Source: Dubosiella newyorkensis
Lineage (GTDB): Bacteria; Bacillota_I; Bacilli_A; Erysipelotrichales; Erysipelotrichaceae
Assembly (NCBI RefSeq): GCF_001945605.1
Contig: NZ_MPKA01000086.1
Coordinates: 61,045 to 93,044, forward strand
Direction of reading: 5' to 3'
Length of the DNA stretch: 32,000 nucleotides
The position numbers were made by a program, and so were the translations under genes. Shown one piece after another: positions 7,971 through 25,186 of the stretch. Within the stretch, counting starts at the first letter, position 1, and every line of letters starts with the position of its first letter. Under the pieces are notes generated by a model, which saw only the letters and a list, made by a program, of their open reading frames with translations, was not told the origin of the DNA and did not search any database.

Positions 7971-8026
7971 GTTGACATTGTCAACGCATAGAGGTATATA
8001 TGAGTTGATAAAGTCAACTCATATAT
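7971..8026 (+). promoter_or_regulatory. Promoter of the MarR-GNAT unit with two palindromic operator candidates
   Basis: TTGACA (7972-7977), a 17-nt spacer, then TATATA (7995-8000). The perfect palindrome GTTGACATTGTCAAC (7971-7985) covers the -35. An inverted repeat ATATATGAGTTGA-5 nt-TCAACTCATATAT (7996-8026) covers the -10 and start region. Both share GTTGA/TCAAC half sites. Confidence 0.55.
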
Positions 8027-8039
8027 TGGAGGGAATACG

Positions 8040-8477: not shown

Positions 8478-8500
8478 ATTGAACTTTAGGAGGAACTGTT

Positions 8501-10597: not shown

Positions 10598-11400
10598 ATC
10601 AATGGAGCGTATATCAAAGAGGGAAATACTATCAAATATCGCCTTCCATATCATATTTTGGTCGGAACACAAATGCTGGAATATGATCGATCTTTTTTAG
10701 GGGCCCGATTGTTCATGAACCAGTTCAATGGCAATTTGATCGTTTCTGGGGCTTTTGGGCTCTTTCAAAAGAAGGCTATCGTACAAGTGGGCAGCTATGC
10801 GCGAGATTCGCTAGGCGAAGATATGGAACTTGTCATGAAGCTCCATGCCTATTTTCGGCAAAATCAGCTTCCGTATACGATCGAATACGTGCCGCAAGCG
10901 GTATGCTGGACTCAAGTGCCGACTTCAGTCAAAAATATTTTCACCCAGCGAAGGCGGTGGCATGTTGGATTGATCCAATGCTTGAACAAGTATCGAAGAA
11001 TGCTTTTTCGCTGCGCTTTGGTCCGCTTGGCTGGTTCTCGTACCCTTATTATTTGTTTTATGAATACTTGGCCCCGATCATTGAAGTGATCGGTGTTGTC
11101 GTGACTTTGTTGACACTTGTTATCAATATCATCAACATTCCGTATACGATCGTTTTTTTCTTTGTGTATTTTGTTTTTGGGATCATCATGGGCATCAGCG
11201 CTTTTTTAGCGAGGATCTATTCCCAGAACGTCTATCTTTCAAGACGCGATATTTTTCGAGCGATTGTTTTGGCTTTCGTGGAAGTGTTCTTCACCCAGTT
11301 CGTCATATTGTCCGCGAGGATCAGCGTGCTCTTCTTGATCTGCAAGAAAAAGCTAGAATGGGGAACGATCCAGCGCAACGGTTTTGGCGAAGAGCGATAA
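10598..11400 (+). pseudogene. C-terminal remnant of a GT2 processive glycosyltransferase (PgaC/IcaA/cellulose-synthase-like), with internal frameshift
   Basis: Contains SGAFGLFQKKAIVQVG, GEDMELVMKL and the QRRRW motif, followed by transmembrane helices. The frame changes near 10990-11010, which is the junction of track ORFs 9896..11089 and 10903..11400. The N-terminal catalytic half is missing. Confidence 0.75.
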
Positions 11401-11403
11401 GAT

Positions 11404-11431
11404 TTGCAAAATATACATTAAACTGTATAAT
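11404..11431 (+). promoter_or_regulatory. Candidate promoter of the yhfZ-like regulator gene
   Basis: TTGCAA (11404-11409), a 16-nt spacer, then the extended -10 TGTATAAT (11424-11431). Confidence 0.5.
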
Positions 11432-11493
11432 AGAAGCCATAAAGGAACACGGTCATCGCATCGGATTTGAACGACCGTAAATTGGGTGGACCT

Positions 11494-12417
11494 ATGGAGA
11501 TTCATGATCTGTTATACAGCAAGAATGGGCTTTCAACGAAAATATTAGCCAAACGTATGCTTTGTTTTGAGGAAGGAGAGAGGATCCCGACTGTCAGCGA
11601 ATGGAACAAGGAGATCCATTTAGCAAGAGGCACCGTGCAAAACGCGCTCAAGCTCCTTCAAAGCTGCGGAGCTGTCGTTTTAGAGGCGCATGGACAATCA
11701 GGGACGCTGTTGAAAAAGAAGGATATGGCAAAGCTCTTAGAGATCTCGGGGATCACGCAAATCTTAGGTGTGATGCCTTTGCCTTATTCAAAACGGTATG
11801 AAGGATTGGCGACTGGCTTGGTGGCGAATGTCGAAAATCGGTATGATATTCCTGTTTCGCTCGCTTTTATGCGCGGATCTAAAAATCGGGTATCTATGGT
11901 GCTTTGCGACCGGTACGATTTCGCGATCATTTCAAGATATGCCGCCGAAAAAATGATTGAGGACGGTTTAGAAATCGAGATCGTCAAAAGCTTAGGGATG
12001 TTTTCCTATTTATCCAAGCATGTGCTAATGTTTCATGATCCGTATGTCGGCAGCATAGAAGATGGGATGAAGATCGGTGTCGATGGCTCTTCGGTCGATC
12101 AAAAGAAGATGAGCGAGATCGCTTGCCGAAATAAATCGGTTCAGTACGTGGAAGTCGAATATACGCAAGTGGTGAAGAAAGTCATTTCTGGCGAAATCGA
12201 CGCGGCCGTATGGAATATGGACGAAATCCAGGAAAAGCTTTACTCGATGAATTATATTCCGCTCTCGATCGATGACGACAAAGATACCGAAGCGGTGATC
12301 GTCACCCATCGCACGCGTCAAGAAGTGGCGAAGATCCTGGATGATTTGATCCAGACGGATTTTGTCCGCAAAAATCAGCAGCTCGTCATTGAGGGCAAGA
12401 TGATCCCCAGTTATTGA
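11494..12417 (+). CDS. yhfZ: YhfZ family putative transcriptional regulator (winged-helix N-terminus plus solute-binding-like C-terminal domain)
   Basis: 307 aa from the ATG at 11494, with a GGGTGGA SD; the track ORF starts at a TTG at 11467. It has a GntR-like HTH (IPTVSEWNKEIHLARGTVQNALKLLQSCGAV). Size and gene context match E. coli YhfZ (about 300 aa). Confidence 0.75.
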   Translation: MEIHDLLYSKNGLSTKILAKRMLCFEEGERIPTVSEWNKEIHLARGTVQNALKLLQSCGAVVLEAHGQSGTLLKKKDMAKLLEISGITQILGVMPLPYSKRYEGLATGLVANVENRYDIPVSLAFMRGSKNRVSMVLCDRYDFAIISRYAAEKMIEDGLEIEIVKSLGMFSYLSKHVLMFHDPYVGSIEDGMKIGVDGSSVDQKKMSEIACRNKSVQYVEVEYTQVVKKVISGEIDAAVWNMDEIQEKLYSMNYIPLSIDDDKDTEAVIVTHRTRQEVAKILDDLIQTDFVRKNQQLVIEGKMIPSY

Positions 12418-12443
12418 GACAGGAATTCCTGTCTTTTTTTTTT
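12418..12443 (+). terminator. Rho-independent terminator after yhfZ
   Basis: GACAGG-AATT-CCTGTC hairpin (12418-12433) followed by T10. Confidence 0.8.
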
Positions 12444-12456
12444 GGAAGCGCTAAAC

Positions 12457-12485
12457 TTGACATAGAAAGGGTATATCCTTATGAT
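12457..12485 (+). promoter_or_regulatory. Candidate promoter of the yhfY-to-exporter operon
   Basis: TTGACA (12457-12462), a 17-nt spacer, then TATGAT (12480-12485). Confidence 0.55.
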
Positions 12486-12503
12486 TTACCTGTAAATATA
12501 AAT

Positions 12504-12572
12504 TATTTTGTATATTTTAGAACGGAGAGAGAAAAGGAGGCTTTATTTTTTTTAACACAAATATACAAAATA
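12504..12572 (+). promoter_or_regulatory. 14-bp inverted repeat pair in the operon leader (operator pair or RNA stem)
   Basis: TATTTTGTATATTT (12504-12517) is the exact reverse complement of AAATATACAAAATA (12559-12572), with 41 nt between them. The pair lies between the promoter and the yhfY SD. Confidence 0.35.
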
Positions 12573-12607
12573 TTATATATTGGTTATTTTATATGAAGGA
12601 GGTACCT

Positions 12608-12955
12608 ATGGATCATTTAGAACTTCTACAATCCTCAGGTTTGATCGCGCAAGAAACATGCTTGAAAGCAAAAAAAGTCGAAATCGAGTGTATCCAACGT
12701 TTTGGAAACTCTGAAAAGACCGAAATGTTTATCACCCATTACGCTCTCGCCTTAGAACGACATCAAAAAGGCGAAATTATTCCTGGACTTCAAAAAGAAG
12801 CCGTCGCTGAAATTTATAGTCATCCTGATCTCGAGGCTTGTCGTCAATTTTTAGACGAGCTCGAATTACTGAGCGGATCGGATCTTTCTTCGATCGAAGA
12901 AGAATTCATCTTGATCCATCTTTTGAATCTCATCAACGAAAAAAACAATAAATAA
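12608..12955 (+). CDS. yhfY: YhfY-like small PRD-domain protein
   Basis: 115 aa from the ATG at 12608, directly preceded by GAAGGAGG; the track start at 12593 lies inside that SD. It has a PRD-like histidine context (FITHYALALERHQKG). Size and position match E. coli YhfY (120 aa). Confidence 0.7.
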   Translation: MDHLELLQSSGLIAQETCLKAKKVEIECIQRFGNSEKTEMFITHYALALERHQKGEIIPGLQKEAVAEIYSHPDLEACRQFLDELELLSGSDLSSIEEEFILIHLLNLINEKNNK

Positions 12956-12966
12956 GAGGAGTGCTT

Positions 12967-14289
12967 ATGTTCAACTATATCATTGCCGCATTGATCGGCG
13001 CGATGTCTGCCGTATTGGCAAACCGGAATATTGCCGTCTATAACGATGGCTTCCGACCTGTCTATACAGAATATCTCAATGGAAATATGGACCGCAAAAC
13101 TCTGGCCACTACTTCGTTTGCGGTCAGCATCGGTCTAGTCATCGGATTTGCTTTCACGAATTCGATCGCGATGGGGATCGTCATCATCCATACATATTTA
13201 TTGATGGGCGATATCATCGGAACATGGTTCCCGGACAATAAAAAAGGATTGATCCTTTCTGCAATCGTCGGGGCTCTGTGGGGAATCGCCGTCGTAACCT
13301 TCATGTCGTCGATCCAAGCCTTCTTCGCGATGTTCCCAGTCAACTTCCTGCCACAACTTGCCGGCGTGGCGGACTATGTTGTCGCGACATTCGCTGTGTT
13401 CCCGGCATTGGTGGTCGCTTATCAAAATGGAGTCAAAAAAGGGATCATTACAGCAATCGTGACATTGGTTGGCTATATGCTTGTCGCGCGCTTCGGTGTA
13501 TTTCAGATCGGGGATTTCACGCTTGCTCTCAACGCGCCAGGTATGGCGATGCTGATTGGCACGATCGTCATGATAGTCTTTGCCGTCAAGACAAAAACAG
13601 ATGCGCAGGGCGCGGATCTTACGAATATTTTTAGCGCCAACATCGATGTGATCAAGAAAAACTGGTTCTATTTCGCGATCATGGGTGGACTTCTAGCGTG
13701 CGCGGCCTCGCAATGCTATTTGACGACAGATGTGATTTCGGGTCCTCTTGCGTTGAAAGGATCGTTTGCGGAAGCGGCTTTGGTCGCGATGGTCAGAGCG
13801 ATCGGCTACATTCCTTTAGTGTATACGACAGCGATCGTTACAGGTGTCTTCTCGCCAGCCGGTTCTTATTTTAGTATCGCAGGTGGATTATTCGTAGCGG
13901 CCATGGGTCTAAGCATGCCAATGGAACCGATCGTAGCCTTCTTAGTTGGAGCGCTGATCATGGGTTTAGAAATCGTTTTGCTTGGCACGATTGGAAGCTT
14001 GCTGGATAAATTCCCGGCCTTAAGAGAACTAGGCGATCATATTCGCGACGCGATGTCAAAGATCCTAGAGCTCGCCCTTCTAGTTGGAGGATTCACTTCG
14101 TCTTTTGCGATCATGAATGAAGTAGGCCTCGGCTCTCTTGGCCCGATGGCGGTCATGATCATTTGGATGCTGAATAAATCGGCGAAAAAGCCGATGCTCA
14201 TACCATTAGCCGTTGGTCCTGTTGTCGCGATCCTTTTAGGAATCGTCGCCAATTTGATCAAGATCTTAGGTCTAGCTGTGATCGTATAA
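12967..14289 (+). CDS. yhfT: YhfT family polytopic inner-membrane protein (presumed transporter)
   Basis: 440 aa from the ATG at 12967 with a GAGGAG SD. The N-terminus AVYNDGFRPV parallels E. coli YhfT AVFHDGIRPI as I recall it. It has more than 10 hydrophobic helices. Confidence 0.8.
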   Translation: MFNYIIAALIGAMSAVLANRNIAVYNDGFRPVYTEYLNGNMDRKTLATTSFAVSIGLVIGFAFTNSIAMGIVIIHTYLLMGDIIGTWFPDNKKGLILSAIVGALWGIAVVTFMSSIQAFFAMFPVNFLPQLAGVADYVVATFAVFPALVVAYQNGVKKGIITAIVTLVGYMLVARFGVFQIGDFTLALNAPGMAMLIGTIVMIVFAVKTKTDAQGADLTNIFSANIDVIKKNWFYFAIMGGLLACAASQCYLTTDVISGPLALKGSFAEAALVAMVRAIGYIPLVYTTAIVTGVFSPAGSYFSIAGGLFVAAMGLSMPMEPIVAFLVGALIMGLEIVLLGTIGSLLDKFPALRELGDHIRDAMSKILELALLVGGFTSSFAIMNEVGLGSLGPMAVMIIWMLNKSAKKPMLIPLAVGPVVAILLGIVANLIKILGLAVIV

Positions 14290-14332
14290 AACAAGCTTAA
14301 TGAAAAGAACAATAGAATAGGAGAAAAAAAAG

Positions 14333-14692
14333 ATGTTAAAAATCGTAGTAGGCGGTGCCTTGAATAAAAACGAAAACGCGGAATTGATCGAAAAATATGG
14401 AAATGGACAAGTCGAAGTCAAAGTCATGGGAGACTTGCAGGCAGCGATGGCTTTAAAAAACGGACAAGCCGATTATTATTTTGGATCTTGTCAAACTGGC
14501 GCTGGAGGCGCTTTGTCGATGGCGATCGCTCTGAATGGAATGAGCAAGTGCGTTCCAGTGGCGATGGTCGGAAAAGTGCTGAGCGATGAAGAAATCGAGC
14601 AAGCGATCAAGGATGGAAAAACGGCGTTTGGATTCGTACCTGAAGCGGCTGCTTCGGTGATTCCTGTGATCATGGATGTGCTGTTGAAATGA
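14333..14692 (+). CDS. yhfU: YhfU family protein (DUF2620)
   Basis: 119 aa. The sequence ADYYFGSCQTGAGGALSMAIAL closely parallels the E. coli YhfU motif DYYIGACNTGAGAALSIAIA as I recall it. Confidence 0.8.
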   Translation: MLKIVVGGALNKNENAELIEKYGNGQVEVKVMGDLQAAMALKNGQADYYFGSCQTGAGGALSMAIALNGMSKCVPVAMVGKVLSDEEIEQAIKDGKTAFGFVPEAAASVIPVIMDVLLK

Positions 14693-15732
14693 GCCGGGTC
14701 AAAAATTACGCCAAAAAGACGCTTCTAGCAACACTTGATCCAGGGCATTCGATCGATCATCTTTTCATGAACGCCCTGGATTCGATCGAAGAAGACAACG
14801 ACATTCAATATATGGGTGTCAAAAATGTCCGCCAGATCCCCACCTCCTTCATTCAAACGCTCATAGACAACGGGTTCGCGCTTCATACTTATGATGGCCA
14901 CAGCCACAATGGTAGAGCCATCGATTACGCAAGGATCAATCCGATCACTGGAAAATGGATGACAGGCTCTTCGAGCGGAAGCGCGATCAATGTCTTTTAT
15001 GGCATCAACGATCTAGGGATCGGGACGGATGGTGGCGGATCGGTTCTAGCTCCCGCTCTTGCCGTCAACTGTTTTGGCTTTATTAGTCCACTACTGGCGG
15101 AAGAGAAGATGAAACGATTCACGAAAAAATCAACCGATGGGATCGAGTTTTATCCATCGCTTGGCTTTATCTCGAACTCTTGGAAGACGATGGTCAAGGC
15201 GATCGAAGCCACTTTGCCACTTCCTAAAGCTCAAAAGCCGATCCTCCTTCACGCGCCAGAAGGCTTGATCGACTCTTTGCCAAAGGAAAGCAAAAATGTG
15301 CTACAAAAATCAGGATTGAAATTTGAAACAGTAAAGATACCATGTTTTGAAGATGAGAGGCAGCCAATGATCGAATTTTTATCCAAAGAGCTGCAAGAAT
15401 GCGATGTGTTCTTGAACTTCGAAAACAAAGTCGATTTTTATGGACTTGGCGATAGCGTGCTTGGTCATTTTGATCAAGAAACAAAGGCGTTCCAAAACAA
15501 AAGTGGCAAAACGCTCATTCGTGTAGCCAATATGGTCAAAGCGACAGCCTTATGCGTTCCTGCTTTCGAGCTATCTAGCGGCTTTACTCTTTATTGTTCT
15601 TCCTCGCTTGAGAAGATCGCGGATCTATTGAAGATCGCAAACACTTTACGGGTGAAAGAAGACGAGCTGATCCAACGCTATTTTCGTGATACAGCTCCTT
15701 ATTTTGAACAAGGTTTGATATGGAACCATTAG
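14689..15732 (+). CDS. Short amidase-signature (AS) family protein
   Basis: 347 aa with an ATGA start/stop overlap with yhfU. MTGSSSGSAINVFYGINDLGIGTDGGGSVLAPA matches the AS core (GGSSGGSA...GTDxGGSIRxPA). The protein is about 100 aa shorter than canonical amidases. Confidence 0.6.
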   Translation: MSRVKNYAKKTLLATLDPGHSIDHLFMNALDSIEEDNDIQYMGVKNVRQIPTSFIQTLIDNGFALHTYDGHSHNGRAIDYARINPITGKWMTGSSSGSAINVFYGINDLGIGTDGGGSVLAPALAVNCFGFISPLLAEEKMKRFTKKSTDGIEFYPSLGFISNSWKTMVKAIEATLPLPKAQKPILLHAPEGLIDSLPKESKNVLQKSGLKFETVKIPCFEDERQPMIEFLSKELQECDVFLNFENKVDFYGLGDSVLGHFDQETKAFQNKSGKTLIRVANMVKATALCVPAFELSSGFTLYCSSSLEKIADLLKIANTLRVKEDELIQRYFRDTAPYFEQGLIWNH

Positions 15733-16574
15733 AAGGGTATACATTGATGCATGAACATATGCATCTCGATCTATCTTACGTCAAGCACGATCCAGATACT
15801 TGTCTAGACTGCTTTGAACAAACACTAAAAGAACTGCAAGAACTCTACGCCAAAGGCGTGCGTCGGATTTTAGAAGTCAGCAATATCGGAATGGGGCGGG
15901 ATCTTGCGTGGATCCAAAAGCTCGAAAAACGATCGGGAATCCAGATCGTGACTTCTACCGGATTTTATAAAGAGCCATTTCTTCCAGATCTAAGCGTGGA
16001 GGAAATGGCGGCCTTGATGATCGAGGATCTAAAGAGTCAAAAAGCGCAAGTCATTGGCGAAATTGGAACATCGTATCAAAAATGGAAAGAACAAGAACGC
16101 AAAGTGTTCGAGGCAGCCGTTTTGGCGCATCAAGAAACAGGCGCGCTGATCACGACGCATACGACCTTAGGAACGCTTGGTCTTGAACAAGCGCGCTATT
16201 TGATCGAGAACGGTGTGGATCCAGATCGGATCATCATTGGACATATGGATCTGAGCAACGATTTGCATACGATCTTAGACGTGCTCGCTCTTGGTGTCAA
16301 TATTGGATTCGATACGATCGGGAAAACGAATTACTTGCTGGATGAAAGGCGTGTCGAGCTTCTTTGCGAGCTCGAGAAAAGAGGGCTGATCGATCATGTC
16401 GTTCTTTCGATGGATATCACGCGTAAAACGCAGCTCAAAGATTTTAAAGGAAAGGGATACGCCTATTTGCTCGATACGTTCGTGCCATTGCTTAGAAAGG
16501 CGAATATGAAGGAAACATCGATCCAACAGATGCTCAAACAAACACCAAACCGTTTATTAGGAGGTAAGCTATGA
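15720..16574 (+). CDS. php: Phosphotriesterase homology protein (amidohydrolase superfamily, PHP/COG1735)
   Basis: 284 aa. It aligns by eye with E. coli Php along its whole length: GYTLMHEHMHLDLS, GEIGTS, ITTHT, GHMDL, FDTIGK, VLSMDITRK. Confidence 0.9.
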   Translation: MEPLEGYTLMHEHMHLDLSYVKHDPDTCLDCFEQTLKELQELYAKGVRRILEVSNIGMGRDLAWIQKLEKRSGIQIVTSTGFYKEPFLPDLSVEEMAALMIEDLKSQKAQVIGEIGTSYQKWKEQERKVFEAAVLAHQETGALITTHTTLGTLGLEQARYLIENGVDPDRIIIGHMDLSNDLHTILDVLALGVNIGFDTIGKTNYLLDERRVELLCELEKRGLIDHVVLSMDITRKTQLKDFKGKGYAYLLDTFVPLLRKANMKETSIQQMLKQTPNRLLGGKL

Positions 16575-17668
16575 AAACGTATCCGCTCGAAAGCATATCG
16601 CTAAAACAAGCCAAAGAATTTCAATTCAAGATGGTCGACGCGATCACAAAGACTTTTTCGGGAAAAGAAAGCTTGAGTCGGGGCGATCTAGGAGTCGTTC
16701 CTGGCTTGAACAAGCCGAAAACGACATGGAAAGCGGAACAGGCGATCGCGCGCTTTTTCGATGCCGAAGCGGCGATGCTTGTCCGTGGTTCGGGGACGGG
16801 AGCGATCCGTTACGCTCTTTTTGCGACCACGAAACCCAATGGAAAGCTTCTTGTTCACTCGGCTCCGATCTACAGCACGACAGAAACTTCGATCCGAATG
16901 CTAGGGCTTGTTCCGATCATGGCGGATTTCAACGATCCAGAAATGATCAAACAAGTCATGCAGGAGAATCCGGATATCGAGGCCGCGCTCATTCAATATA
17001 CAAGACAGGTTCCAGAGGATCATTACGATATTAAGGAAGTCATCGAGACGATCAAAGCACAAAAAGAGATCCCGATCGTCACGGATGACAACTACGCGGT
17101 GATGAAGGTCAGCAAGATCGGAAGCGAGTGCGGGGCGGATCTTTCGTGCTTTTCCACTTTCAAGCTGCAAGGACCCGAGGGAATTGGATGTATTGTCGGA
17201 AAGAAAAAATATATAGATGCTTTGATCAAAGAACACTACTCAGGCGGCTCGCAAACGCAAGGCTGGGAAGCGATGGAAGTGCTTCGAGGTCTTGTCAGCG
17301 CGCCTGTCGCATTAGCTATCCAAGCCGAAGTCAACGAAGAACTGCTTCAAAGAATCCAAGAGCTGCCGCAAGTCAAAGACGCTTTTCTTGCCAACGCTCA
17401 ATCTAAAGTGCTAATCGTAGAGTTTCATGAACCGATCGCGCAAAAAGTACTTGAGCGAGCTGAAAAGCTAGGGGCTTTGCCAAATCCAGTTGGAGCGGAA
17501 TCAAAATACGAGATCGCGCCGATGTTCTATCGTGTCTCGGGCACGTTCATCAAATCGGATCCTTCTCGCAAAGATTCGATGATCCGGATCAATCCGAATC
17601 GAAGCGGAGCAGATACGATCGTATCGATCTTGAAGCAGGCGCTGGAAAGCGAGGAAGCATGTTCCTAA
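16571..17668 (+). CDS. yhfS: YhfS-like PLP-dependent enzyme (aminotransferase class V-like fold)
   Basis: 365 aa (E. coli YhfS is about 361 aa) with an ATGA overlap with php. A candidate PLP lysine lies in CFSTFKLQGPEG. Confidence 0.75.
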   Translation: MKTYPLESISLKQAKEFQFKMVDAITKTFSGKESLSRGDLGVVPGLNKPKTTWKAEQAIARFFDAEAAMLVRGSGTGAIRYALFATTKPNGKLLVHSAPIYSTTETSIRMLGLVPIMADFNDPEMIKQVMQENPDIEAALIQYTRQVPEDHYDIKEVIETIKAQKEIPIVTDDNYAVMKVSKIGSECGADLSCFSTFKLQGPEGIGCIVGKKKYIDALIKEHYSGGSQTQGWEAMEVLRGLVSAPVALAIQAEVNEELLQRIQELPQVKDAFLANAQSKVLIVEFHEPIAQKVLERAEKLGALPNPVGAESKYEIAPMFYRVSGTFIKSDPSRKDSMIRINPNRSGADTIVSILKQALESEEACS

Positions 17669-18834
17669 AAAAAGTAGTGGAAAGAAATCCAAGTCTTGTA
17701 GAAGCGGGGTTTCATTTGATGAATACACATACGATCTTGCCAGATACGTATGTCGTGGATGTCGATCAGTTTGTAGCCAACGCCAAAGCGATCTTAGAAA
17801 AAGCCAACCTCTATGGGATTGACTTGTACTTTATGCTCAAGCAGATCGGACGGAATCCATACTTAGCCAAAAAGCTAGTCGAGCTCGGGTATCCTGGAGC
17901 TGTCGCGGTCGATTATAGGGAAGCGGAAGTGTTGATGGCTCACGACATCCCCATCAGCAACATTGGACATCTTGTGCAAGTACCGCAAGGCTTTTTAGAA
18001 AGAGTCGTAGCGTATGAGCCAGACTACCTCACGGTCTTTTCACTCGATAAGATCGAGGAGATCGAAAAGATCTGCGCGAAGTTGAACAAAAAACAAAAAG
18101 TGCTGCTCAAAGTCGTGGGCGAAGACGATGTATTGTATACGGGCCAGTTTGCCGGCTTCGAATTGAAAGATCTCGATCAGGTCGTAGAAACGATCAATAA
18201 ATTCGACCACATTCAAATTGGCGGTGTCACTTCTTTTCCTTGTTTCTTGGTGGATGAAACGAGCGGGAAGGCAAAGCCCACGCCAAATCTTGAAACGCTT
18301 TTGCAGGCCAAAGCGGTCTTAAAAGCGCATGGAATCGAGGATATCAACGTGAATGCGCCTTCCGCGACTTGTATCGAAACGTTAGAAGAAATGGCAGCGT
18401 GCAAATCGATCACGAGCGCAGAACCAGGACACGGTTTATCAGGGACTACACCGCTACATGCCCACAGAACTATGAAAGAGATTCCTTGCGTGATCTATAT
18501 GAGCGAGATCTCGCACAACTTCAAAGAGCACGCGTATAGTTTTGGGGGCGGACATTATCGGCGCTCGCATATTCAATATGCTCTTGTTGGAAGATCGCTC
18601 AAACAAGCCGAGTGGACGAAAGTCTTGGATCTAGATCCGACGTGTATCGATTATTATTTTGAGCTGGAAAGATCGTTTCCGGTTTCATATCCTGTGTGTA
18701 TGGCGTTTCGGTTTCAGATTTTCGTGACGCGTTCGCATGTAGCGCTTTTGGAAGGTCTTCATCATGGAGATCGAAAAAGGATCGGTTTGTATGATAGTCA
18801 AGGAAGGAGTATCGTATGGGAAGATTTATCGTGA
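17659..18834 (+). CDS. yhfX: YhfX-like alanine-racemase-fold (fold-type III PLP) protein
   Basis: 391 aa (E. coli YhfX is about 387 aa), overlapping yhfS by 10 nt. It has an N-terminal TIM-barrel-like region with a lysine in YFMLKQIG. Confidence 0.75.
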   Translation: MFLKKVVERNPSLVEAGFHLMNTHTILPDTYVVDVDQFVANAKAILEKANLYGIDLYFMLKQIGRNPYLAKKLVELGYPGAVAVDYREAEVLMAHDIPISNIGHLVQVPQGFLERVVAYEPDYLTVFSLDKIEEIEKICAKLNKKQKVLLKVVGEDDVLYTGQFAGFELKDLDQVVETINKFDHIQIGGVTSFPCFLVDETSGKAKPTPNLETLLQAKAVLKAHGIEDINVNAPSATCIETLEEMAACKSITSAEPGHGLSGTTPLHAHRTMKEIPCVIYMSEISHNFKEHAYSFGGGHYRRSHIQYALVGRSLKQAEWTKVLDLDPTCIDYYFELERSFPVSYPVCMAFRFQIFVTRSHVALLEGLHHGDRKRIGLYDSQGRSIVWEDLS

Positions 18835-20021
18835 TCGTCCTCGATGGGTTCGGGATGCAGGCGATGAAGGATGCGGCGATCGTTCGCCCAGGGGATGAAA
18901 ACAGCAGCACGCTAGGCAGCTTGCTTCATGATTTTCCTGATCTTAAGCTGCCCACTTTAGAATATCTTGGTTTGATGAACGCGTTTGGTCAGGAAAGTAG
19001 GGCGATGAAGTTTTCTTCTTCGGCTTCCTTTGGACGATGTGAGCTGATGCATTTTGGAGCGGACACGTTTCAAGGGCATCAAGAGATCATGGGAACCAAG
19101 CCGAAAAAGCCTGAAGTGCATGATTTTCAACAAAAGATCTACGAAATCGAGAAGATCTTGCTTTCCAATGGGCATCAAGTCGAGCGTCTTGGCGAGAAAG
19201 GATTGGAGTACTTGCTGGTGGATCAATATTGCACGGTGGCGGATAATATCGATTCGGATCTAGGGATGGCGTATAATTGCACGGCTCCTCTTGATTTTCT
19301 TTCTTTTGATCAAGAGATGGAGATCGCGCGTCTTGTTCGAAGTGTTGTTTTTGTCAACCGGGTCATCGCTTTTGGCGGGACAGGGAATACGATCGAAGAT
19401 ATTTTAAAGGCTGAACAAGTGCGGGAAGGAAAATATATTGGTTTGCTCGCTTCCGCGACAAAGTCGTATGAGCAAGGGTATGAATGCCGGCATCTTGGCT
19501 ATGGTGTCGATCCAAGCGTGCAGGCGCCCATGATCTTAGGCAAGGCTAGCATTCCCGTGTCTTTGTTTGGCAAAGTGGCGGATATCGTTCATAACGAGTA
19601 TGGCAAATCGGTTTCAATGGTGGATACAGCCAAGGTGCTTGATCTTACGATCGAAGAAATGAAAACGATGGAGCATGGGTTTATTTGCACGAATGTGCAG
19701 GAAACCGATCTAGCGGGGCATTCGCAAGATCCGCTCCGGTATAAAGAGGTGCTTGAGATCGCGGATCAAAAGCTAAGACAAATTGTCGAGTTGGTGAATG
19801 AAGAGGATGTGCTCGTGGTCATGGCGGATCATGGCAACGATCCGGACATTGGCCACAACAAGCATACAAGGGAGAACGTCCCTCTGCTCGTGAAAGCTAG
19901 AAAGGAAGGGGTCGATCTTGGTTTGCGCGCCTCTCTTTCGGATGTGGGCGCGAGCGTGTGCGATTATTTTGGGGTTGAGGCTCCAGAAAATGGGACGTCG
20001 TTCTTGCCTTTGATTCGATGA
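18816..20021 (+). CDS. yhfW: YhfW-like phosphopentomutase / alkaline-phosphatase-superfamily metalloenzyme
   Basis: 401 aa (E. coli YhfW is about 408 aa), overlapping yhfX by 19 nt. It has the N-terminal IVIVLDGFG metal-site motif and C-terminal VMADHGNDP...GHNKHTRE, typical of phosphopentomutase-like enzymes. Confidence 0.8.
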   Translation: MGRFIVIVLDGFGMQAMKDAAIVRPGDENSSTLGSLLHDFPDLKLPTLEYLGLMNAFGQESRAMKFSSSASFGRCELMHFGADTFQGHQEIMGTKPKKPEVHDFQQKIYEIEKILLSNGHQVERLGEKGLEYLLVDQYCTVADNIDSDLGMAYNCTAPLDFLSFDQEMEIARLVRSVVFVNRVIAFGGTGNTIEDILKAEQVREGKYIGLLASATKSYEQGYECRHLGYGVDPSVQAPMILGKASIPVSLFGKVADIVHNEYGKSVSMVDTAKVLDLTIEEMKTMEHGFICTNVQETDLAGHSQDPLRYKEVLEIADQKLRQIVELVNEEDVLVVMADHGNDPDIGHNKHTRENVPLLVKARKEGVDLGLRASLSDVGASVCDYFGVEAPENGTSFLPLIR

Positions 20022-20749
20022 AAGCGTCATGGAGCGAAGGATCGCTTGCGGATGCGATCGTCTTGGCGGGATCGATCTTGTTGGAGAACGGAGCGGAAAC
20101 GCGTCGGATCGAGGATACGATGTTTCGGCTGGCTCATGTCTATGGGGCAGAAGAGATCGAGACGTACGCGACACCAGGCATGTTGATGGTTTCCTTTTCC
20201 TACCATGGAAAGAGTGTCTGGAGGATGAGGCGGACAAGAGTTCGTTCGACAGATCTTGAAAAGATCGATCAGATCAATTCTCTATCGCGTCTCGCTTCAG
20301 CCAACGCACTCCCTTTAACCCAATTGGTTCAAGAATTGAAGCGCGTGCAAGAAGGGGCGGGTGTTGAAAACAAGCAGTTCATTTTGGGGGCTGCCACTTC
20401 TTCTTTCGGATTCGCGCTTCTTTTTCATGCTTCCTTCTATCAAGCTTGTATGGCGGGGATCCTAGGAGGGACTTGTGGTTTATTCTTGCAAAGATCGAAA
20501 GCGAAGGGTGTGTTCAAGAACTTGATGGCGAGCGCTTTTATTTCCTTTTTTGCTTCTTTCGCTCATTCTAAGCTTATATTGTTGGGGGCTCTTATGATCT
20601 TGGTTCCAGGGATGCTTTTGACCAACGCTTTGCGGGATATCGTGAATGGAGACCCGATTTCGGGAATGTCAAGGCTTGGGGAGGCGATCACGATCGCGGC
20701 CTCGATCGCTTTGGGTAATTTGGCGATTCAAATGCTGGGGTGTTTTTGA
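20018..20749 (+). CDS. Threonine/serine exporter family protein, ThrE/YjjP-like part (DUF1212)
   Basis: 243 aa with an ATGA overlap with yhfW. The sequence LLENGAETRRIEDTM...NALRDIVNGDPISG is typical of the ThrE family. Confidence 0.8.
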   Translation: MKASWSEGSLADAIVLAGSILLENGAETRRIEDTMFRLAHVYGAEEIETYATPGMLMVSFSYHGKSVWRMRRTRVRSTDLEKIDQINSLSRLASANALPLTQLVQELKRVQEGAGVENKQFILGAATSSFGFALLFHASFYQACMAGILGGTCGLFLQRSKAKGVFKNLMASAFISFFASFAHSKLILLGALMILVPGMLLTNALRDIVNGDPISGMSRLGEAITIAASIALGNLAIQMLGCF

Positions 20750-21165
20750 TGAAAGGGGTCATTGGCGCTTTTTTGGGCGCTCTGGGGTTTGGCTTGATGT
20801 ATCATCTTTCGGGGAAGAAGCTTTGGTGGACGGCGCTTTGTGGAGGGGTTGGTCAGTTTATTTGCTTGCTTGTTTCAAGATGGACAGATTCGGCGATGGC
20901 TCCCATGTTGGTGGCCGCCTTTTGTGTCAATAGCTTTGCGGAAATCTTGGCTCGTCGATTGAAGGCGCCTGTGATCGTGTTTTTGGTGTGCGCTCTGATT
21001 CCGCTCGTTCCTGGAAAAGGGATCTATGAAGCGTTGTTGTGTTGTTTAAGCGAAAATGGCGCGAGCATGGAGGCGGCATCGAAAACATTGCTGGAAGCTT
21101 CGGGGATCGTGGCTGGTTGCGCGATCAGTTCGTGGTTGTTTTATCGGAAATCAAGTGAAGAATGA
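20749..21165 (+). CDS. Threonine/serine exporter family protein, YjjB-like part (DUF3815)
   Basis: 138 aa from the ATG at 20749, with a TGATG overlap; the track uses a GTG at 20740. It has four hydrophobic helices, and LIPLVPG is typical of the family. Confidence 0.75.
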   Translation: MKGVIGAFLGALGFGLMYHLSGKKLWWTALCGGVGQFICLLVSRWTDSAMAPMLVAAFCVNSFAEILARRLKAPVIVFLVCALIPLVPGKGIYEALLCCLSENGASMEAASKTLLEASGIVAGCAISSWLFYRKSSEE

Positions 21166-21190
21166 ATATGTCTAAGGCAAATTGAGATTG

Positions 21191-21234
21191 GCCGCTTATT
21201 CTTAATCCTCATTAAGAGTAAGCGGCTTTTGCTT
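21191..21234 (+). terminator. Rho-independent terminator ending the yhf-exporter operon
   Basis: GCCGCTTATTCTTAAT pairs with ATTAAGAGTAAGCGGC over 16 bp with one G-U pair, followed by TTTT. Confidence 0.7.
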
Positions 21235-21260
21235 GTCTTCAAGAGTCGTGTCACTATAAA

Positions 21261-21274
21261 ATATCTTAAGATAT
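21261..21274. promoter_or_regulatory. Perfect 14-bp palindrome, candidate TetR operator
   Basis: ATATCTTAAGATAT sits 36 nt upstream of the TetR start, next to a TATAAA -10-like box (21255-21260). Confidence 0.4.
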
Positions 21275-21309
21275 ATATCGTAGGATATTTCATAGAAAAG
21301 AGGAGCGAT

Positions 21310-21882
21310 ATGCCACCAAGACGAAAAATAACGAAAGAAATGCTGTTAGACCATGCTTTTCAAATAGCTGAAAGTAAGGGAATTTCTGCTGTAACCTCAC
21401 GAAGCGTTGCAAAATCGGTAGGATGTTCTGTTCAGCCTGTTTTTAGCCAGTTTCCAACTATGGAAGAACTGCGGCAAGCGACCTTTGATTATGCGTGTAA
21501 TAAGTTTGTAGACGAGGTATTAGTTTTTGAAAATCAGCCCGACTTTATGCTTAAAGTAGTTTCATGAACAATAGACCTTGCTCGAAACAGACCACACTTA
21601 TACCGTTTGCTTTATTTGTCGGGCGGTTTTCAAGGAAAAACCCTAATGGAATCTATGATGACGTATGAAAGCAATCAAAAAATGATAGCAAAAATGACAG
21701 AACTATACGGATTGGACACAGAAAACTGCAAAGATATTCTAATGCGTAGCTGTTTATTCCTATTGGGAATCGGAACAATGATTTGTGAAAATCACTTTTC
21801 TTATACAGACGAACAGATTTCCCAAATGATGAAGCAGACGGTTGCGGATCTGGTGCAGGGAGCAAAGAGGCGCAGCATATGA
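21310..21882 (+). pseudogene. TetR/AcrR family regulator interrupted by one in-frame TGA
   Basis: Track ORFs 21229..21567 and 21607..21882 are in the same frame. The 39 nt between them contain no stop. The joined product is 190 aa with a TetR HTH (SAVTSRSVAKSVGCSVQPVFSQF). The TGA is at 21565-21567. Confidence 0.75.
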
Positions 21883-23225
21883 AACAAATCGGATTATTGA
21901 GGGCATTGGCACTGACACGCAAGGCGAACAAAATGAGTAATCAAGAGCGGATTGCTTTGCAGCAACGCCGCTTGAAGGAGCTAATTGCCTATGCGAGGAA
22001 AAATAGCTCATACTTTTCGAAGCTGTATAAAGGCATTGATAAGGACTGTCCTTTATCAGAATATCCGACTACTAATAAGGCGGATATGGCAAAGCACTTT
22101 GACGAATGGTTTACAGATCGTTCGATCACAAGGGACATTGTAGATAGTTTTATGTCAGACCTTTCCAATGTGGGGAAGAAATTAAACGGAAAATATCTGG
22201 TTTACACCACTTCTGGCTCAACTGGAACTCCTTGTATTGTCCTATATGATGACACAACTATCAATGTTTCCTCTGCGATTGGTGTTTTACGCAGTTTTGC
22301 AAGGAAAGAAGATATGAGGTTGTTTATGCAGTCGGGCGGAAAAGCCCTTGCCCTTTTTGCCGACAACGGTTTTTATCTTGGAAGCGGCTCAGGCAAGTAT
22401 CAGCTTCGTAAAATGCCATGGAAGAAAAGAAAAATGAAAGCCTTGGATGTTCGAAAATCGAATTCCGAAATTATTGCTTTGTTGAATGCGTACCAGCCAT
22501 CTATGATTGGCTGCTATCCTTCCGCGATGGAAATACTGGCTGCCAAACAGGAAAAGGGAAATTTGCATATTCGACCAGCCATGATCATGACGGGTGGAGA
22601 AAAGCTGAACGACGATGTACGGGAATATTTGTCCAAAGTGTTCGGCTGTTATGTGCAGACCAATTATTCTTGTACGAAGGGAGGCACAGTTGCTTGCGAA
22701 TGTACCGAAAGACACTTCCATATAAACGATGATTGGATAATTGTTGAAGCTGTTGACGAAAACAATCAGCCTGTTCCGTTTGGAACCCAGTCAGCAAAGG
22801 TATTACTTACAAATCTTGCGAATAAGATATGCCCTATCATCCGTTTTGAAATAACGGATAGGATTATTCTTCATAAAGAACCATGCGCGTGTGGCAATTC
22901 CAGACCGTGGCTTACTTTAGAAGGTAGAACAGATGACATTCTGGTATTTGGGAATGGCATCAAGTTTGCTCCGCTACCTCTCTATGCCATATTAAAAGAA
23001 GTTCAAGGAATAGAAAGGTTTCAACTTATCCAACATGTGAATGACCGTTTGGAGCTGTGGCTGATAGCCAAGAACAAACAGGAACAATTTGCGAAAGCAA
23101 AACAAGCGATCGAAGCGCATTTGCGTCAGAATGGAGTAGATGCCAAGATTTATTTATCAAACAGTGATCCCTCTGCAGATCCAATAAGTGGAAAATTCAA
23201 ACATGTTGTCGCAAAGAAGAGCTGA
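21879..23225 (+). CDS. Phenylacetate-CoA ligase family (PaaK / F390 synthetase / CapK-like) adenylating enzyme
   Basis: 448 aa with an ATGA overlap with the TetR stop. It has the TTSGSTGTP P-loop and a PaaK-like overall layout. Confidence 0.75.
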   Translation: MKQIGLLRALALTRKANKMSNQERIALQQRRLKELIAYARKNSSYFSKLYKGIDKDCPLSEYPTTNKADMAKHFDEWFTDRSITRDIVDSFMSDLSNVGKKLNGKYLVYTTSGSTGTPCIVLYDDTTINVSSAIGVLRSFARKEDMRLFMQSGGKALALFADNGFYLGSGSGKYQLRKMPWKKRKMKALDVRKSNSEIIALLNAYQPSMIGCYPSAMEILAAKQEKGNLHIRPAMIMTGGEKLNDDVREYLSKVFGCYVQTNYSCTKGGTVACECTERHFHINDDWIIVEAVDENNQPVPFGTQSAKVLLTNLANKICPIIRFEITDRIILHKEPCACGNSRPWLTLEGRTDDILVFGNGIKFAPLPLYAILKEVQGIERFQLIQHVNDRLELWLIAKNKQEQFAKAKQAIEAHLRQNGVDAKIYLSNSDPSADPISGKFKHVVAKKS

Positions 23226-25118: not shown

Positions 25119-25186
25119 GACTTATTGTTTTTAAAAAGGAGTGTAAATGGTATAATAAGAAAAATGGTACGAAGGGAGAATAACGA

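What the first reader, a model, noticed from the sequence alone, without database searches (positions are those of the whole stretch)
11404..21234. Complete yhf-type orphan locus (yhfZ / yhfY-yhfT-yhfU-amidase-php-yhfS-yhfX-yhfW) fused to an exporter: a catabolic system with no known substrate
What the sequence shows:
- A separately transcribed YhfZ-like regulator with its own promoter and terminator.
- A nine-gene operon from one promoter (12457-12485) to one terminator (21191-21234).
- Almost every junction in that operon is translationally coupled: ATGA at 14689, 16571 and 20018; overlaps of 13, 10 and 19 nt at 15720, 17659 and 18816; TGATG at 20749.

Established knowledge: the same gene set (yhfS, yhfT, yhfU, php, yhfW, yhfX, yhfY, yhfZ) lies next to the fructoselysine frl operon in E. 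coli K-12. To my knowledge it has no assigned substrate or pathway, although a Php crystal structure exists. As I recall, some COG1735 relatives were shown to be phosphorylated sugar-lactone lactonases.

Inference: the enzyme mix is a membrane carrier plus DUF2620, an amidase, a lactonase/esterase-like Php, two PLP enzymes of different folds, a phosphomutase and a PRD protein. That suggests uptake and breakdown of an amide-linked amino-acid/sugar(-phosphate) conjugate under PTS-linked control. Conservation of the module between a Gram-negative and this Gram-positive-like genome, with tight coupling here, argues for a functional pathway that remains undescribed.
Basis: partly seen in the sequence, partly recalled or inferred. 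Interest (0 to 1): 0.8.

Follow-up and report, generated by a model that had tools for sequence, protein, structure and literature searches.

The report
Orphan yhf nutrient-breakdown operon, Gram-positive version
This is an intact copy, in the mouse-gut bacterium Dubosiella newyorkensis, of a widespread gene cluster (E. coli yhf genes) whose nutrient is still unknown; comparison with about 170 related loci suggests a phosphotransferase-fed pathway for an amino-sugar-like compound under one conserved repressor site, which makes the open question testable.

Summary
The window (Dubosiella newyorkensis, Erysipelotrichaceae) carries full-length orthologues of all eight E. coli yhf proteins. It also carries a 347-aa reduced amidase-signature protein and a two-gene ThrE-type exporter. 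The layout is a monocistronic yhfZ followed by a ten-gene (not nine-gene) translationally coupled operon.

I found no published pathway. Four E. coli members have solved structures named only as uncharacterized, hypothetical or homology proteins.

New findings from about 170 related loci:
- A 22-bp palindrome, AATATACA-N6-TGTATATT, sits at both promoters here and at the equivalent sites from Bacillota to E. coli. It is absent where YhfZ is replaced, so it is the likely YhfZ operator.
- No kinase was seen, but HPr (usually with Enzyme I) ends the operon in several non-Bacillota lineages. The PRD protein keeps both phospho-histidines. PRD, Php and DUF2620 occur fused pairwise. YhfT and YhfU are always adjacent.
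- The small amidase is a regular member (54 of 65 complete loci). The exporter is confined to Dubosiella/Faecalibaculum-type loci.
- Recurrent accessory genes (true NagB, a PBP4B-like lipoprotein) point to an amino-sugar, possibly cell-wall-derived, substrate.

Verdict: a real orphan catabolic operon, a variant of a known but unsolved kind. The substrate is still unknown.

The parts
11403..11431 (+). yhfZ promoter-like site (TTTGCA-17-TATAAT)
   Evidence: 10 of 12. It lies in the gap after the upstream ORF ends at 11400.
11410..11431 (.). Predicted YhfZ operator OZ, AATATACATTAAACTGTATAAT, overlapping the yhfZ -10 element (predicted autoregulation)
   Evidence: one of only 3 matches (1 mismatch each) in 32 kb, 0.16 expected. 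The same palindrome lies upstream of yhfZ in 36 related loci.
11494..12417 (+). yhfZ: GntR-type HTH (HTH_41) plus YhfZ_C ligand-binding-like domain. The ORF opens at TTG 11467; the probable start is ATG 11494.
   Evidence: NF041241 362.6 bits, above the 260 cutoff; 32% identity to E. coli YhfZ; PDB 2OZZ, E=4e-29; start codon context.
12416..12435 (+). Terminator of yhfZ (8-bp stem followed by a T run)
   Evidence: perfect 9+9 inverted repeat at 12417-12434.
12457..12485 (+). Operon promoter, TTGACA-17-TATGAT
   Evidence: 11 of 12. Both hexamers are invariant in three species.
12495..12516 (.). Predicted YhfZ operator O1, AATATAAATTATTTTGTATATT, just downstream of the -10 element
   Evidence: (conserved block).
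12560..12581 (.). Predicted YhfZ operator O2, AATATACAAAATATTATATATT, just upstream of the yhfY start. Its centre is 65 bp from that of O1.
   Evidence: The pair could alternatively form an RNA hairpin.
12593..12955 (+). yhfY: PRD-only protein (120 aa) with both phosphorylatable histidines (H49, H109)
   Evidence: H49, R56 and E102 are 100% conserved and H109 93% conserved among 46 homologues.
12967..14289 (+). yhfT: polytopic membrane protein, the putative permease. The ORF opens at GTG 12961; the probable start is ATG 12967.
   Evidence: PF10797, 397 bits; many hydrophobic segments.
14333..14692 (+). yhfU: DUF2620, a small alpha/beta protein with a conserved C53-x-T-G-x-G-G loop
   Evidence: model pLDDT 97.5; best PDB matches are RpiB; weak SFCGS matches; adjacent to yhfT in 65 of 65 loci.
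14689..15732 (+). Reduced amidase-signature protein ('AmiL', 347 aa) with an intact Lys45 / Ser94-96 / Ser118 triad
   Evidence: 835 homologues; invariant columns; pLDDT 91; amidase-signature fold, TM about 0.6, 12-16% identity.
15720..16574 (+). php: PTE-family binuclear metallohydrolase, orthologue of E. coli Php
   Evidence: 42% identity; 1BF6/4LEF, E=4e-68; all six metal ligands conserved.
16571..17668 (+). yhfS: fold-type I PLP enzyme (Lys198)
   Evidence: 55% identity; PDB 4J8L.
17659..18834 (+). yhfX: alanine-racemase-fold (type III) PLP enzyme (Lys61)
   Evidence: 45% identity; PDB 4KBX.
18816..20021 (+). yhfW: phosphopentomutase-like metalloenzyme
   Evidence: PRK12383 550 bits, cutoff 254; 49% identity; motifs conserved.
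20018..20749 (+). thrE: large subunit of a two-gene ThrE-type exporter. Its start overlaps the yhfW stop (ATGA).
   Evidence: (PF06738, 187 bits).
20749..21165 (+). thrE2: small subunit (ThrE_2). Start is ATG 20749 or GTG 20740.
   Evidence: (PF12821, 95.8 bits).
21190..21234 (+). Operon terminator (17-bp stem followed by a T run)

Best explanation
The locus is an intact, YhfZ-repressed catabolic operon of the yhf type.

Shown:
- All eight yhf families are present with their catalytic residues, plus a reduced amidase and a ThrE-type exporter.
- A conserved palindrome occupies both promoters.

Inferred mechanism:
1. Regulation. YhfZ binds AATATACA-N6-TGTATATT at its own promoter and at two sites bracketing the operon leader. 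It releases them when its C-terminal domain senses the substrate or a phospho-intermediate.
2. Uptake. The membrane protein YhfT takes up the substrate together with the small cysteine-loop protein YhfU. Phosphate comes from the PEP:sugar phosphotransferase relay (Enzyme I, HPr). Either YhfU acts like an EIIB during transport, or it phosphorylates the substrate inside the cell in the manner of the Dha kinase system. The PRD protein YhfY reads or relays this phosphorylation state and acts on Php and/or YhfZ.
3. Breakdown. The phosphorylated, nitrogen-containing sugar-like compound is opened by two hydrolases: the small amidase (amide bond) and Php (lactone, ester or cyclic amide). The two PLP enzymes then act at the amino-bearing carbon: YhfX as a racemase/epimerase type, YhfS as a lyase/aminotransferase type. 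YhfW moves the phosphate.
4. Export. In Dubosiella the co-translated ThrE pair exports a surplus amino-acid or organic-acid product.

The substrate is unknown. My best guess is an amino sugar derivative, possibly from cell wall, that ends as glucosamine-6-phosphate. I put this guess at about 0.3.
For: Identity and integrity.

Operator:
- There are exactly 3 matches in the window, all at the two promoters (0.16 expected).
- The 8-mer lies downstream of yhfZ in 48 of 68 loci and in 0 of 68 control segments. It lies upstream of yhfZ in 36 loci.
- E. coli has AATATTCA-N6-TGAATATT upstream of yhfZ and of yhfX.
- The site is at the expected promoters in the Breznakiella genome, a Spirochaetales MAG and a Petrotogaceae contig. 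It is absent from L093, where a GntR/UTRA regulator replaces YhfZ.

PTS link:
- HPr plus Enzyme I directly follow yhfW or yhfX in L087, L088 and L093 and in L096, L102 and L108.
- HPr alone abuts the yhfW stop in L129.
- The PRD histidines are conserved.
- Fusions exist: PRD-Php in both orders, DUF2620-PRD on 14 contigs, and one Php-DUF2620.
- YhfT and YhfU are adjacent in 65 of 65 loci despite 11 different gene orders.
- No recurrent kinase was found among neighbours.

Substrate clue:
- NagB scores above the TIGR00502 cutoff and sits next to the cluster in 9 genome loci, a Spirochaetales MAG and a common human-gut variant.
- A PBP4B-like lipoprotein recurs. In L089 it carries a perfect operator.
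Against: - No canonical EIIA, EIIB or EIIC is present.
- YhfT shows no detectable similarity to the ascorbate EIIC UlaA.
- YhfU resembles the isomerase RpiB (Foldseek TM 0.65, E=2e-3) more than an EIIB, and all its similarities are weak.
- HPr/EI adjacency was seen only outside Bacillota and E. coli.
- The E. coli cluster lacks the amidase, NagB and the PBP4B-like gene.
- The two leader sites could work as an RNA hairpin rather than as DNA operators.
- Gene context cannot identify a substrate, and nothing here is experimental.
Confidence: 0.55

Rival explanations
1. The pathway is not PTS-driven. YhfT is an ordinary secondary carrier and YhfU is an RpiB-like sugar-phosphate isomerase. The substrate is already phosphorylated, or is phosphorylated by a kinase encoded elsewhere. 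The PRD protein and HPr only provide catabolite-type regulatory cross-talk.
For: - The best structural matches of YhfU are RpiB.
- The shared C-x-T-G-x-G motif aligns with the RpiB catalytic cysteine region.
- YhfT has no similarity to an EIIC.
- No EIIA is present.
- A hexokinase-family gene lies near the cluster in L087 and L029.
Against: - Other RpiB active-site residues (the Asp/His at the N-terminus, the His-Asn motif) are not conserved in the DUF2620 alignment (comparison from my knowledge of RpiB).
- YhfU is always next to the membrane protein.
- YhfU is found fused to a PRD.
- A dedicated HPr, with or without EI, inside the operon in lineages of three phyla is hard to explain by cross-talk alone.
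Confidence: 0.25
2. The cluster degrades a glycated amino acid (an Amadori or Heyns product), like its E. coli neighbour, the frl operon. NagB-like enzymes would then act as deglycases.
For: - The cluster is adjacent to frlABCDR in E. coli K-12.
- It contains PLP enzymes for an amino-acid moiety.
- It is associated with NagB.
- An SIS-domain gene and a cupin GPI gene lie in the variant locus L093.
Against: - The frl adjacency is not seen in any of the Bacillota loci.
- No deglycase/SIS gene or kinase is a regular member.
- The NagB genes pass the equivalog cutoff for true glucosamine-6-phosphate deaminase.
- This reading does not explain the PBP4B-like hydrolase or the amidase.
Confidence: 0.1
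3. The system is biosynthetic or a detoxification system that makes or modifies a compound and exports it through ThrE, rather than a catabolic system.
For: An exporter is translationally coupled to the last enzyme gene here.
Against: - The exporter is present only in Dubosiella/Faecalibaculum-type loci.
- All other loci pair the enzymes with an uptake-type membrane protein, a repressor, NagB or PTS genes, which is the usual make-up of a catabolic operon.
Confidence: 0.05

Closest known systems
E. coli K-12 yhfZ-yhfY-yhfX-yhfW-php-yhfU-yhfT-yhfS cluster (b3376-b3383), function unknown
   Same: - All eight proteins are full-length orthologues at 30-55% identity.
- Catalytic residues are shared.
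- A related operator palindrome is present.
   Different: - The gene order differs.
- E. coli has no reduced amidase and no ThrE exporter.
- E. coli YhfY lacks the second PRD histidine.
- The E. coli operator half-site is TTCA/TGAA rather than TACA/TGTA.
L-ascorbate (Ula/Sga) PTS system of E. coli: UlaA EIIC, UlaB EIIB, UlaC EIIA, UlaG phospho-lactone lactonase
   Same: Working analogy: a membrane permease plus a small cysteine-loop protein fed by HPr, followed by a metallohydrolase acting on the phosphorylated product.
   Different: - YhfT has no detectable sequence relationship to UlaA.
- YhfU matches UlaB only over a 15-residue motif.
- There is no EIIA.
- Php belongs to a different hydrolase fold from UlaG.
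SFCGS / DUF4310-4312 cluster of Enterococcus faecium, with an amidohydrolase, a DgaE-type PLP lyase, a KDGP aldolase and a BglG-type PRD regulator (PMC11934601); relative of the Salmonella D-glucosaminate (dga) pathway (my knowledge)
   Same: - The architecture is parallel: a glycine-rich cysteine-loop protein, uncharacterized membrane proteins, an amidohydrolase-superfamily enzyme, a fold-type I PLP enzyme and PRD control.
- 12 of 29 DUF2620 proteins give weak Pfam matches to Gly_rich_SFCGS.
   Different: - The membrane and PLP families differ.
- The yhf cluster has no aldolase.
- The yhf cluster adds a type III PLP enzyme and a phosphomutase.
- The SFCGS cluster is also uncharacterized.
Phospho-sugar lactonases of the PTE family (Lmo2620 3PNZ, MS53_0025 3MSR; NCBIfam NF045706)
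   Same: Same PTE/amidohydrolase fold and the same binuclear metal ligands.
   Different: The window's Php scores 99.7 bits against a cutoff of 630 for NF045706. It groups with E. coli Php, whose substrate is unknown.
E. coli murQP-yfeW MurNAc catabolic operon (my knowledge)
   Same: A PBP4B/YfeW-like serine hydrolase is co-located with a PTS-type uptake and amino-sugar catabolic operon. The end product is channelled to NagB.
   Different: - There is no MurQ etherase and no MurP.
- The PBP4B-like match is below the family cutoff (221 vs 385 bits).
- This gene is absent from the window itself.

Membership tests
yhf orphan cluster (E. coli yhfSTU-php-yhfWXYZ) | All eight protein families are present as full-length homologues in one locus | tested here: met
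   30-55% identity over the full length for all eight. The YhfZ equivalog model is passed (362.6 bits, cutoff 260), and so is the YhfW-type model (550 bits, cutoff 254).
yhf orphan cluster (E. coli yhfSTU-php-yhfWXYZ) | Catalytic and cofactor residues are retained (Php metal ligands, PLP lysines, mutase metal/Thr motifs) | tested here: met
   H11, H13, E114, H147, H175 and D232 in Php; K198 in YhfS; K61 in YhfX; the DGFG, GADTF, ETDLAGH, ADHGNDP and HTRE motifs in YhfW.
Amidase-signature (AS) family | Gly/Ser-rich signature with the Ser-cisSer-Lys catalytic triad | tested here: met
   K45, S94-S96 and S118 are invariant in 40 homologues. The signature aligns to GatA and FAAH.
Amidase-signature (AS) family | Full-length AS domain (about 410-600 aa in solved members) passing family thresholds | tested here: not met
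   - Length is 347 aa.
- Pfam matches residues 89-131 only.
- All NCBIfam amidase models score far below their cutoffs.
- The fold match has TM about 0.6 at 12-16% identity.
This is a reduced, separate subfamily.
PRD (PTS regulation domain) proteins | PRD fold with two conserved phosphorylatable histidines | tested here: met
   Pfam PRD scores 23.0 bits, at the cutoff. H49 is 100% conserved and H109 93% conserved in 46 homologues.
PRD (PTS regulation domain) proteins | Attached RNA- or DNA-binding effector domain (antiterminator or activator) | tested here: not met
   The protein is 120 aa and PRD-only. In other lineages the PRD is fused to Php or to DUF2620 instead.
PTS permease (EIIA/EIIB/EIIC) | Sequence membership in a known EIIC or EIIB family | tested here: not met
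   - Pfam gives only YhfT and DUF2620.
- hhalign against UlaA finds nothing.
- hhalign against UlaB aligns 15 columns at E=0.15.
PTS permease (EIIA/EIIB/EIIC) | PEP/EI/HPr-dependent phosphorylation of the transported substrate | not testable with these tools
   Only context evidence is available: HPr, with or without EI, inside the operon in L087, L088, L093, L096, L102, L108 and L129.
GntR-type repressor with palindromic operator | N-terminal winged HTH, plus a conserved inverted repeat at regulated promoters that co-occurs with the regulator | tested here: met
   HTH_41/GntR match. Palindrome statistics and cross-phylum conservation. Binding itself was not tested.
RpiB/LacAB sugar-phosphate isomerases | Membership of PF02502 and the full catalytic set | tested here: not met
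   - No Pfam match to LacAB_rpiB, even at E up to 10.
- Only the Cys-x-Thr-Gly loop is shared.
- The fold similarity is modest.
ThrE-type two-component exporter | ThrE plus ThrE_2 domains on adjacent genes | tested here: met
   PF06738 at 186.7 bits and PF12821 at 95.8 bits. The transported compound is unknown.
Phospho-furanose lactonase (NF045706) | Score above the equivalog cutoff | tested here: not met
   99.7 bits against a cutoff of 630.

The most novel reading that the evidence does not exclude
YhfT, YhfU and YhfY together form a previously unrecognized kind of PEP-dependent phosphotransferase system:
- YhfT is a membrane permease unrelated to known EIIC families.
- YhfU is an RpiB-fold cysteine-loop protein that acts as the phosphoryl donor.
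- YhfY, a stand-alone PRD, takes the place of EIIA or of the sensor. It gates an enzyme (Php) directly rather than a transcription factor, as the PRD-Php and DUF2620-PRD fusions suggest.
Probability: 0.3. Interest if true: 0.8.

Novelty: new variant of a known kind. Interest (0 to 1): 0.55.

Why it matters
**Scale of the open question**
- The yhf genes are a conserved block of the E. coli 'y-ome' that has resisted annotation. Four of its proteins have crystal structures that carry no functional name.
- The cluster is present in at least 416 of 185,579 species-level genomes by a strict pattern search. It also occurs on hundreds of gut and termite-gut metagenome contigs.
- It therefore probably handles a common but unrecognized nutrient of gut bacteria.

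**What this analysis adds**
- A candidate operator for reporter and binding assays.
- A prediction that the pathway depends on PTS Enzyme I and HPr.
- A predicted end product, glucosamine-6-phosphate.
- A short list of cell-wall and amino-sugar candidates to try.

**If the transport part is confirmed**
It would add a new family to a transport and signalling system that has been considered fully catalogued.

Tried and rejected
- Rfam scan of the whole window: no RNA family.
- Catabolite-responsive element (cre) search: 15 matches against 22.5 expected, none at the promoters.
- Literature: five full-text searches found no paper that assigns a pathway. Terms covered the yhf gene names, DUF2620, SFCGS/DUF431x, and yhfV/phosphotriesterase homology. 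Most yhfS/T/W hits are unrelated B. subtilis genes of the same name. A Bdellovibrio prey transcriptome lists yhfV as 1.26-fold up, which is uninformative.
- hhalign of a YhfT alignment against UlaA: no similarity.
- hhalign of DUF2620 against RpiB and UlaB: only short motif alignments, at E=0.024 and E=0.15.
- Recurrent neighbours such as GlmS, RluD, LspA, SepF, AroB and cytidylate kinase were set aside. They recur only among closely related Lacrimispora/Hungatella genomes, so they reflect shared ancestry rather than function.
- Homoserine-lactone (quorum-quenching) degradation was considered because of the PTE-type lactonases and the Thr/Ser exporter. It was dropped because the exporter is lineage-specific and nothing else points that way.

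Full report
**1. Observation**

ORF listing and profile searches confirm a + strand array. Coordinates below use the revised yhfZ, yhfT and thrE2 starts argued at the end of this section.

| Coordinates | Gene | Assignment |
|---|---|---|
| 11494-12417 | yhfZ | HTH_41 + YhfZ_C; NF041241 362.6 bits, cutoff 260 |
| 12593-12955 | yhfY | PRD only |
| 12967-14289 | yhfT | PF10797, 397 bits |
| 14333-14692 | yhfU | DUF2620 |
| 14689-15732 | 'amidase' | 347 aa; matches the amidase signature over residues 89-131 only |
| 15720-16574 | php | PTE family |
| 16571-17668 | yhfS | YhfS-like_C |
| 17659-18834 | yhfX | YhfX-like_C |
| 18816-20021 | yhfW | PRK12383 550 bits, cutoff 254 |
| 20018-20749 | thrE | ThrE |
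| 20749-21165 | thrE2 | ThrE_2 |

- The promoter scan as a whole is at chance level (18 hits vs 17.5 expected). However, the 12457-12485 site is the best in the region, and its two hexamers are invariant in an alignment with Dubosiella muris and Faecalibaculum.
- Both terminators are found.
- Three corrections apply. The operon has ten genes. yhfZ most likely starts at ATG 11494. yhfT most likely starts at ATG 12967.

**2. Origin and equivalence to E. coli**

- The amidase-like protein is 100% identical to an NCBI protein of Dubosiella newyorkensis. This species belongs to the Erysipelotrichaceae, Bacillota.
- Against the annotated E. coli K-12 region, all eight Yhf proteins align over their full length at 30-55% identity.
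- All six Php metal ligands, both PLP lysines and the YhfW metal/Thr motifs are conserved.
- E. coli has neither the amidase nor the exporter, and its gene order differs.
- The PDB holds E. coli Php (1BF6/4LEF), YhfS (4J8L), YhfX (4KBX) and YhfZ (2OZZ). They are named 'phosphotriesterase homology protein', 'uncharacterized protein' (twice) and 'hypothetical protein'.
- Five full-text literature searches found no assigned pathway.

**3. Distribution, core and accessories**

- A pattern scan of one genome per species found 416 YhfS-encoding loci, of which the 80 best were fetched.
- A metagenome scan with a DUF2620 alignment found more than 480 loci, of which 80 were fetched.
- In 65 genome loci that carry all seven readily detected core genes:
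  - a PRD protein is present in at least 62;
  - the small amidase is present in 54;
  - YhfT and YhfU are adjacent in 65 of 65, although the other genes occur in 11 different orders.
- The amidase family has 835 detected members of about 320-360 aa. Every homologue whose neighbourhood I looked up lay in or next to a yhf cluster. It also occurs in a Petrotogaceae cluster at 35% identity.
- ThrE and ThrE2 occur only in loci with the Dubosiella gene order: L007, L048, L126, L144 and L175.
- Recurrent accessories are:
  - a lipoprotein of the beta-lactamase/PBP family of about 450-520 aa, whose best NCBIfam match is PBP4B (221 bits, below cutoff);
  - a true NagB (TIGR00502 294-317 bits, cutoff 237).
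- These accessories sit immediately beside or inside the operon in diverse Bacillota, a Spirochaetales MAG and a very common human-gut variant with the order Z-BLAC-Y-U-T-Php-S-X-W-NagB.
- An enolase-superfamily gene resembling L-Ala-D/L-Glu epimerase appears in two lineages.

**4. Regulation**

- The leader alignment of three species shows two conserved blocks in otherwise diverged sequence.
- These blocks are inverted copies of a 22-bp palindrome, AATATACA-N6-TGTATATT.
- With up to three mismatches allowed, the window has exactly three matches, each with one mismatch (0.16 expected):
  - 11410-11431, overlapping the yhfZ -10 element;
  - 12495-12516, just after the operon -10 element;
  - 12560-12581, just before the yhfY start.
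- The core 8-mer lies in the region downstream of yhfZ in 48 of 68 loci, against 0 of 68 control segments. It lies upstream of yhfZ in 36 loci, often as a perfect palindrome.
- E. coli carries AATATTCA-N6-TGAATATT upstream of yhfZ and upstream of yhfX.
- The site is also at the expected promoters in the Breznakiella genome (L087), a Spirochaetales MAG (L090), a Petrotogaceae contig (L088) and L089/L091/L092/L129. In L089 a perfect copy precedes the PBP4B-like gene. In L093, where a GntR/UTRA regulator replaces YhfZ, the site is absent.
- I infer that this is the YhfZ operator, giving autoregulation plus a two-site block of the operon.
- The rival reading is an AU-rich RNA hairpin (-19.7 kcal/mol, z = -3.1). 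It cannot explain the copy at the yhfZ promoter.

**5. Phosphotransferase link**

- No kinase is a regular member of the cluster.
- HPr and Enzyme I genes follow yhfW or yhfX directly in several places:
  - Breznakiella homolactica, Spirochaetota;
  - a Petrotogaceae contig;
  - a divergent metagenome variant;
  - three metagenome contigs whose YhfU is 76-81% identical to the Breznakiella protein.
- In L129 an HPr gene starts right at the yhfW stop.
- The PRD-only protein keeps the two PRD histidines, at 100% and 93% conservation.
- Domain fusions link the three small soluble partners:
  - PRD-Php in both orders;
  - DUF2620-PRD on 14 contigs from three sources;
  - one Php-DUF2620, on two contigs only, to be treated with caution.
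- The YhfU model is confident (pLDDT 97.5). It is a five-stranded alpha/beta protein whose nearly invariant Cys53 opens a glycine-rich loop at a helix N-terminus.
- Its best PDB matches are RpiB (TM 0.65 and 0.60). Weak Pfam matches connect DUF2620 to the SFCGS family, whose E. faecium cluster has a parallel make-up.
- The family is small: 181 representatives among 1.84 billion proteins.
- Taken together this favours a PEP-driven phosphorelay ending at YhfU/YhfT. Sequence membership in known EII families was tested and not met, and a plain isomerase role for YhfU is not excluded.

**6. The enzymes**

- The amidase-like protein models confidently (pLDDT 91) as a trimmed amidase-signature fold. 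Its best matches are malonamidase E2, GatA and FAAH, at E about 1e-12, TM about 0.6 and 12-16% identity.
- Lys45, Ser94-96 and Ser118 are invariant, along with several conserved Arg, Lys, Asp and His residues. It is therefore probably an active hydrolase for a charged amide.
- Php groups with E. coli Php, not with the characterized phospho-sugar lactonases (99.7 bits vs a cutoff of 630).
- YhfS is nearest to Cys/Met-metabolism lyases.
- YhfX has the alanine-racemase fold.
- YhfW is nearest to phosphopentomutase.
- The cluster has no dehydrogenase, aldolase or kinase. The pathway therefore consists of hydrolysis, PLP chemistry and phosphate migration only (inference).

**7. Substrate**

This is inference only.
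- NagB without NagA suggests that glucosamine-6-phosphate, or a close relative, is produced with a free amine.
- A secreted PBP4B-like hydrolase under the same operator suggests an amino-sugar derivative released from a larger amide- or ester-linked structure, possibly cell wall. The occasional Ala-Glu-epimerase-like gene and an M15 peptidase gene point the same way.
- I rate this at about 0.3.
- Glycated amino acids are a weaker alternative. They are suggested by the E. coli frl neighbour, but that adjacency is not seen elsewhere.

**8. Exporter**

- thrE overlaps the yhfW stop (ATGA), and thrE2 overlaps the thrE stop. Co-expression is therefore very likely.
- The pair is confined to one lineage. 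It is best read as a local addition that disposes of a product, not as part of the conserved mechanism.

**9. Verdict**

- This is a real, intact, widely conserved orphan operon. The window holds a Bacillota variant, with a mini-amidase and an exporter, of a known but unsolved cluster.
- The comparative results add a candidate operator, a PTS dependence, partner fusions and an amino-sugar lead.
- All functional statements beyond family membership are inferences from sequence and gene context.

Noticed in passing
window 9495-11400: An IS3-type element lies inside a family-2 glycosyltransferase gene. It has an orfA-like ORF at 9495-9782 and an rve integrase. The ORF listing ORF at 9896-11089 therefore reads as an integrase-glycosyltransferase chimera. 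The glycosyltransferase remnant runs to 11400, just before the yhfZ promoter.
   Followed up: partly
L091 12562-13830; L092 13896-15212: Single proteins combine a full PTE/Php domain with a PRD domain, in both orders: Php-PRD in L091 and PRD-Php in L092. A PRD attached to an enzyme rather than to a transcription regulator is unusual.
   Followed up: partly
L093 4243-5049 (P0249/P0341): A DUF2620-PRD fusion protein sits in a divergent cluster. That cluster has YhfT, YhfW, YhfX, HPr and Enzyme I, but a GntR/UTRA regulator instead of YhfZ, no Php, and extra SDR, 2-hydroxyacid dehydrogenase, cupin GPI, class-III aminotransferase and SIS genes.
   Followed up: partly
L071 7224-9500, L079 3839-5900, L082 12595-14700, L086 12592-14700: A second, divergent Php plus YhfS pair (32% and 47% identity) lies directly downstream of the main cluster in several Erysipelotrichaceae MAGs. 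This suggests that these two enzymes work as a unit.
   Followed up: no
L016 4333-4698 and 11 other loci (cluster c4): A small protein of about 120-150 aa, with an N-terminal zinc-ribbon-like CxxC pair and a hydrophobic segment, is inserted between yhfZ and yhfY/yhfT in one group of Erysipelotrichaceae-type clusters. It has no Pfam family above threshold.
   Followed up: no
L140, L148, L151, L159, L160, L168 and about 20 similar contigs: A very common human-gut variant has the order Z-(PBP4B-like)-Y-U-T-Php-S-X-W-NagB and lacks the small amidase. Other loci (L132, L153, L155) have both hydrolases.
   Followed up: partly
window 21229-21567 and 21879-23225: Immediately after the operon terminator lies a 112-aa ORF with only a TetR N-terminal HTH. 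It is followed by a 448-aa ORF with a sub-threshold AMP-binding match (27.2 bits, cutoff 29.9).
   Followed up: no
window 24192-29900: A PfkB-family sugar kinase and a 423-aa PGI-like protein are followed by a binding-protein ABC transporter set: a PBP_like_2 binding protein, two BPD_transp_1 permeases and an ABC ATPase. No link to the yhf operon was seen.
   Followed up: no
window 1903-8983: This stretch holds a run of small-molecule modification and regulator genes: an esterase, an AMP-binding ligase plus GNAT, a truncated-looking GFO/IDH/MocA oxidoreductase (148 aa), a CAT-like acetyltransferase, an AraC-type regulator, and MarR plus GNAT.
   Followed up: no
L087 1122-2078 and 12283-13641; L029 2014-3117: In Breznakiella a Peptidase_M15_4 gene (a cell-wall peptidase family) and a hexokinase-family gene flank the yhf/HPr/EI cluster. 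A 30%-identical hexokinase-family gene lies near the cluster in L029.
   Followed up: no
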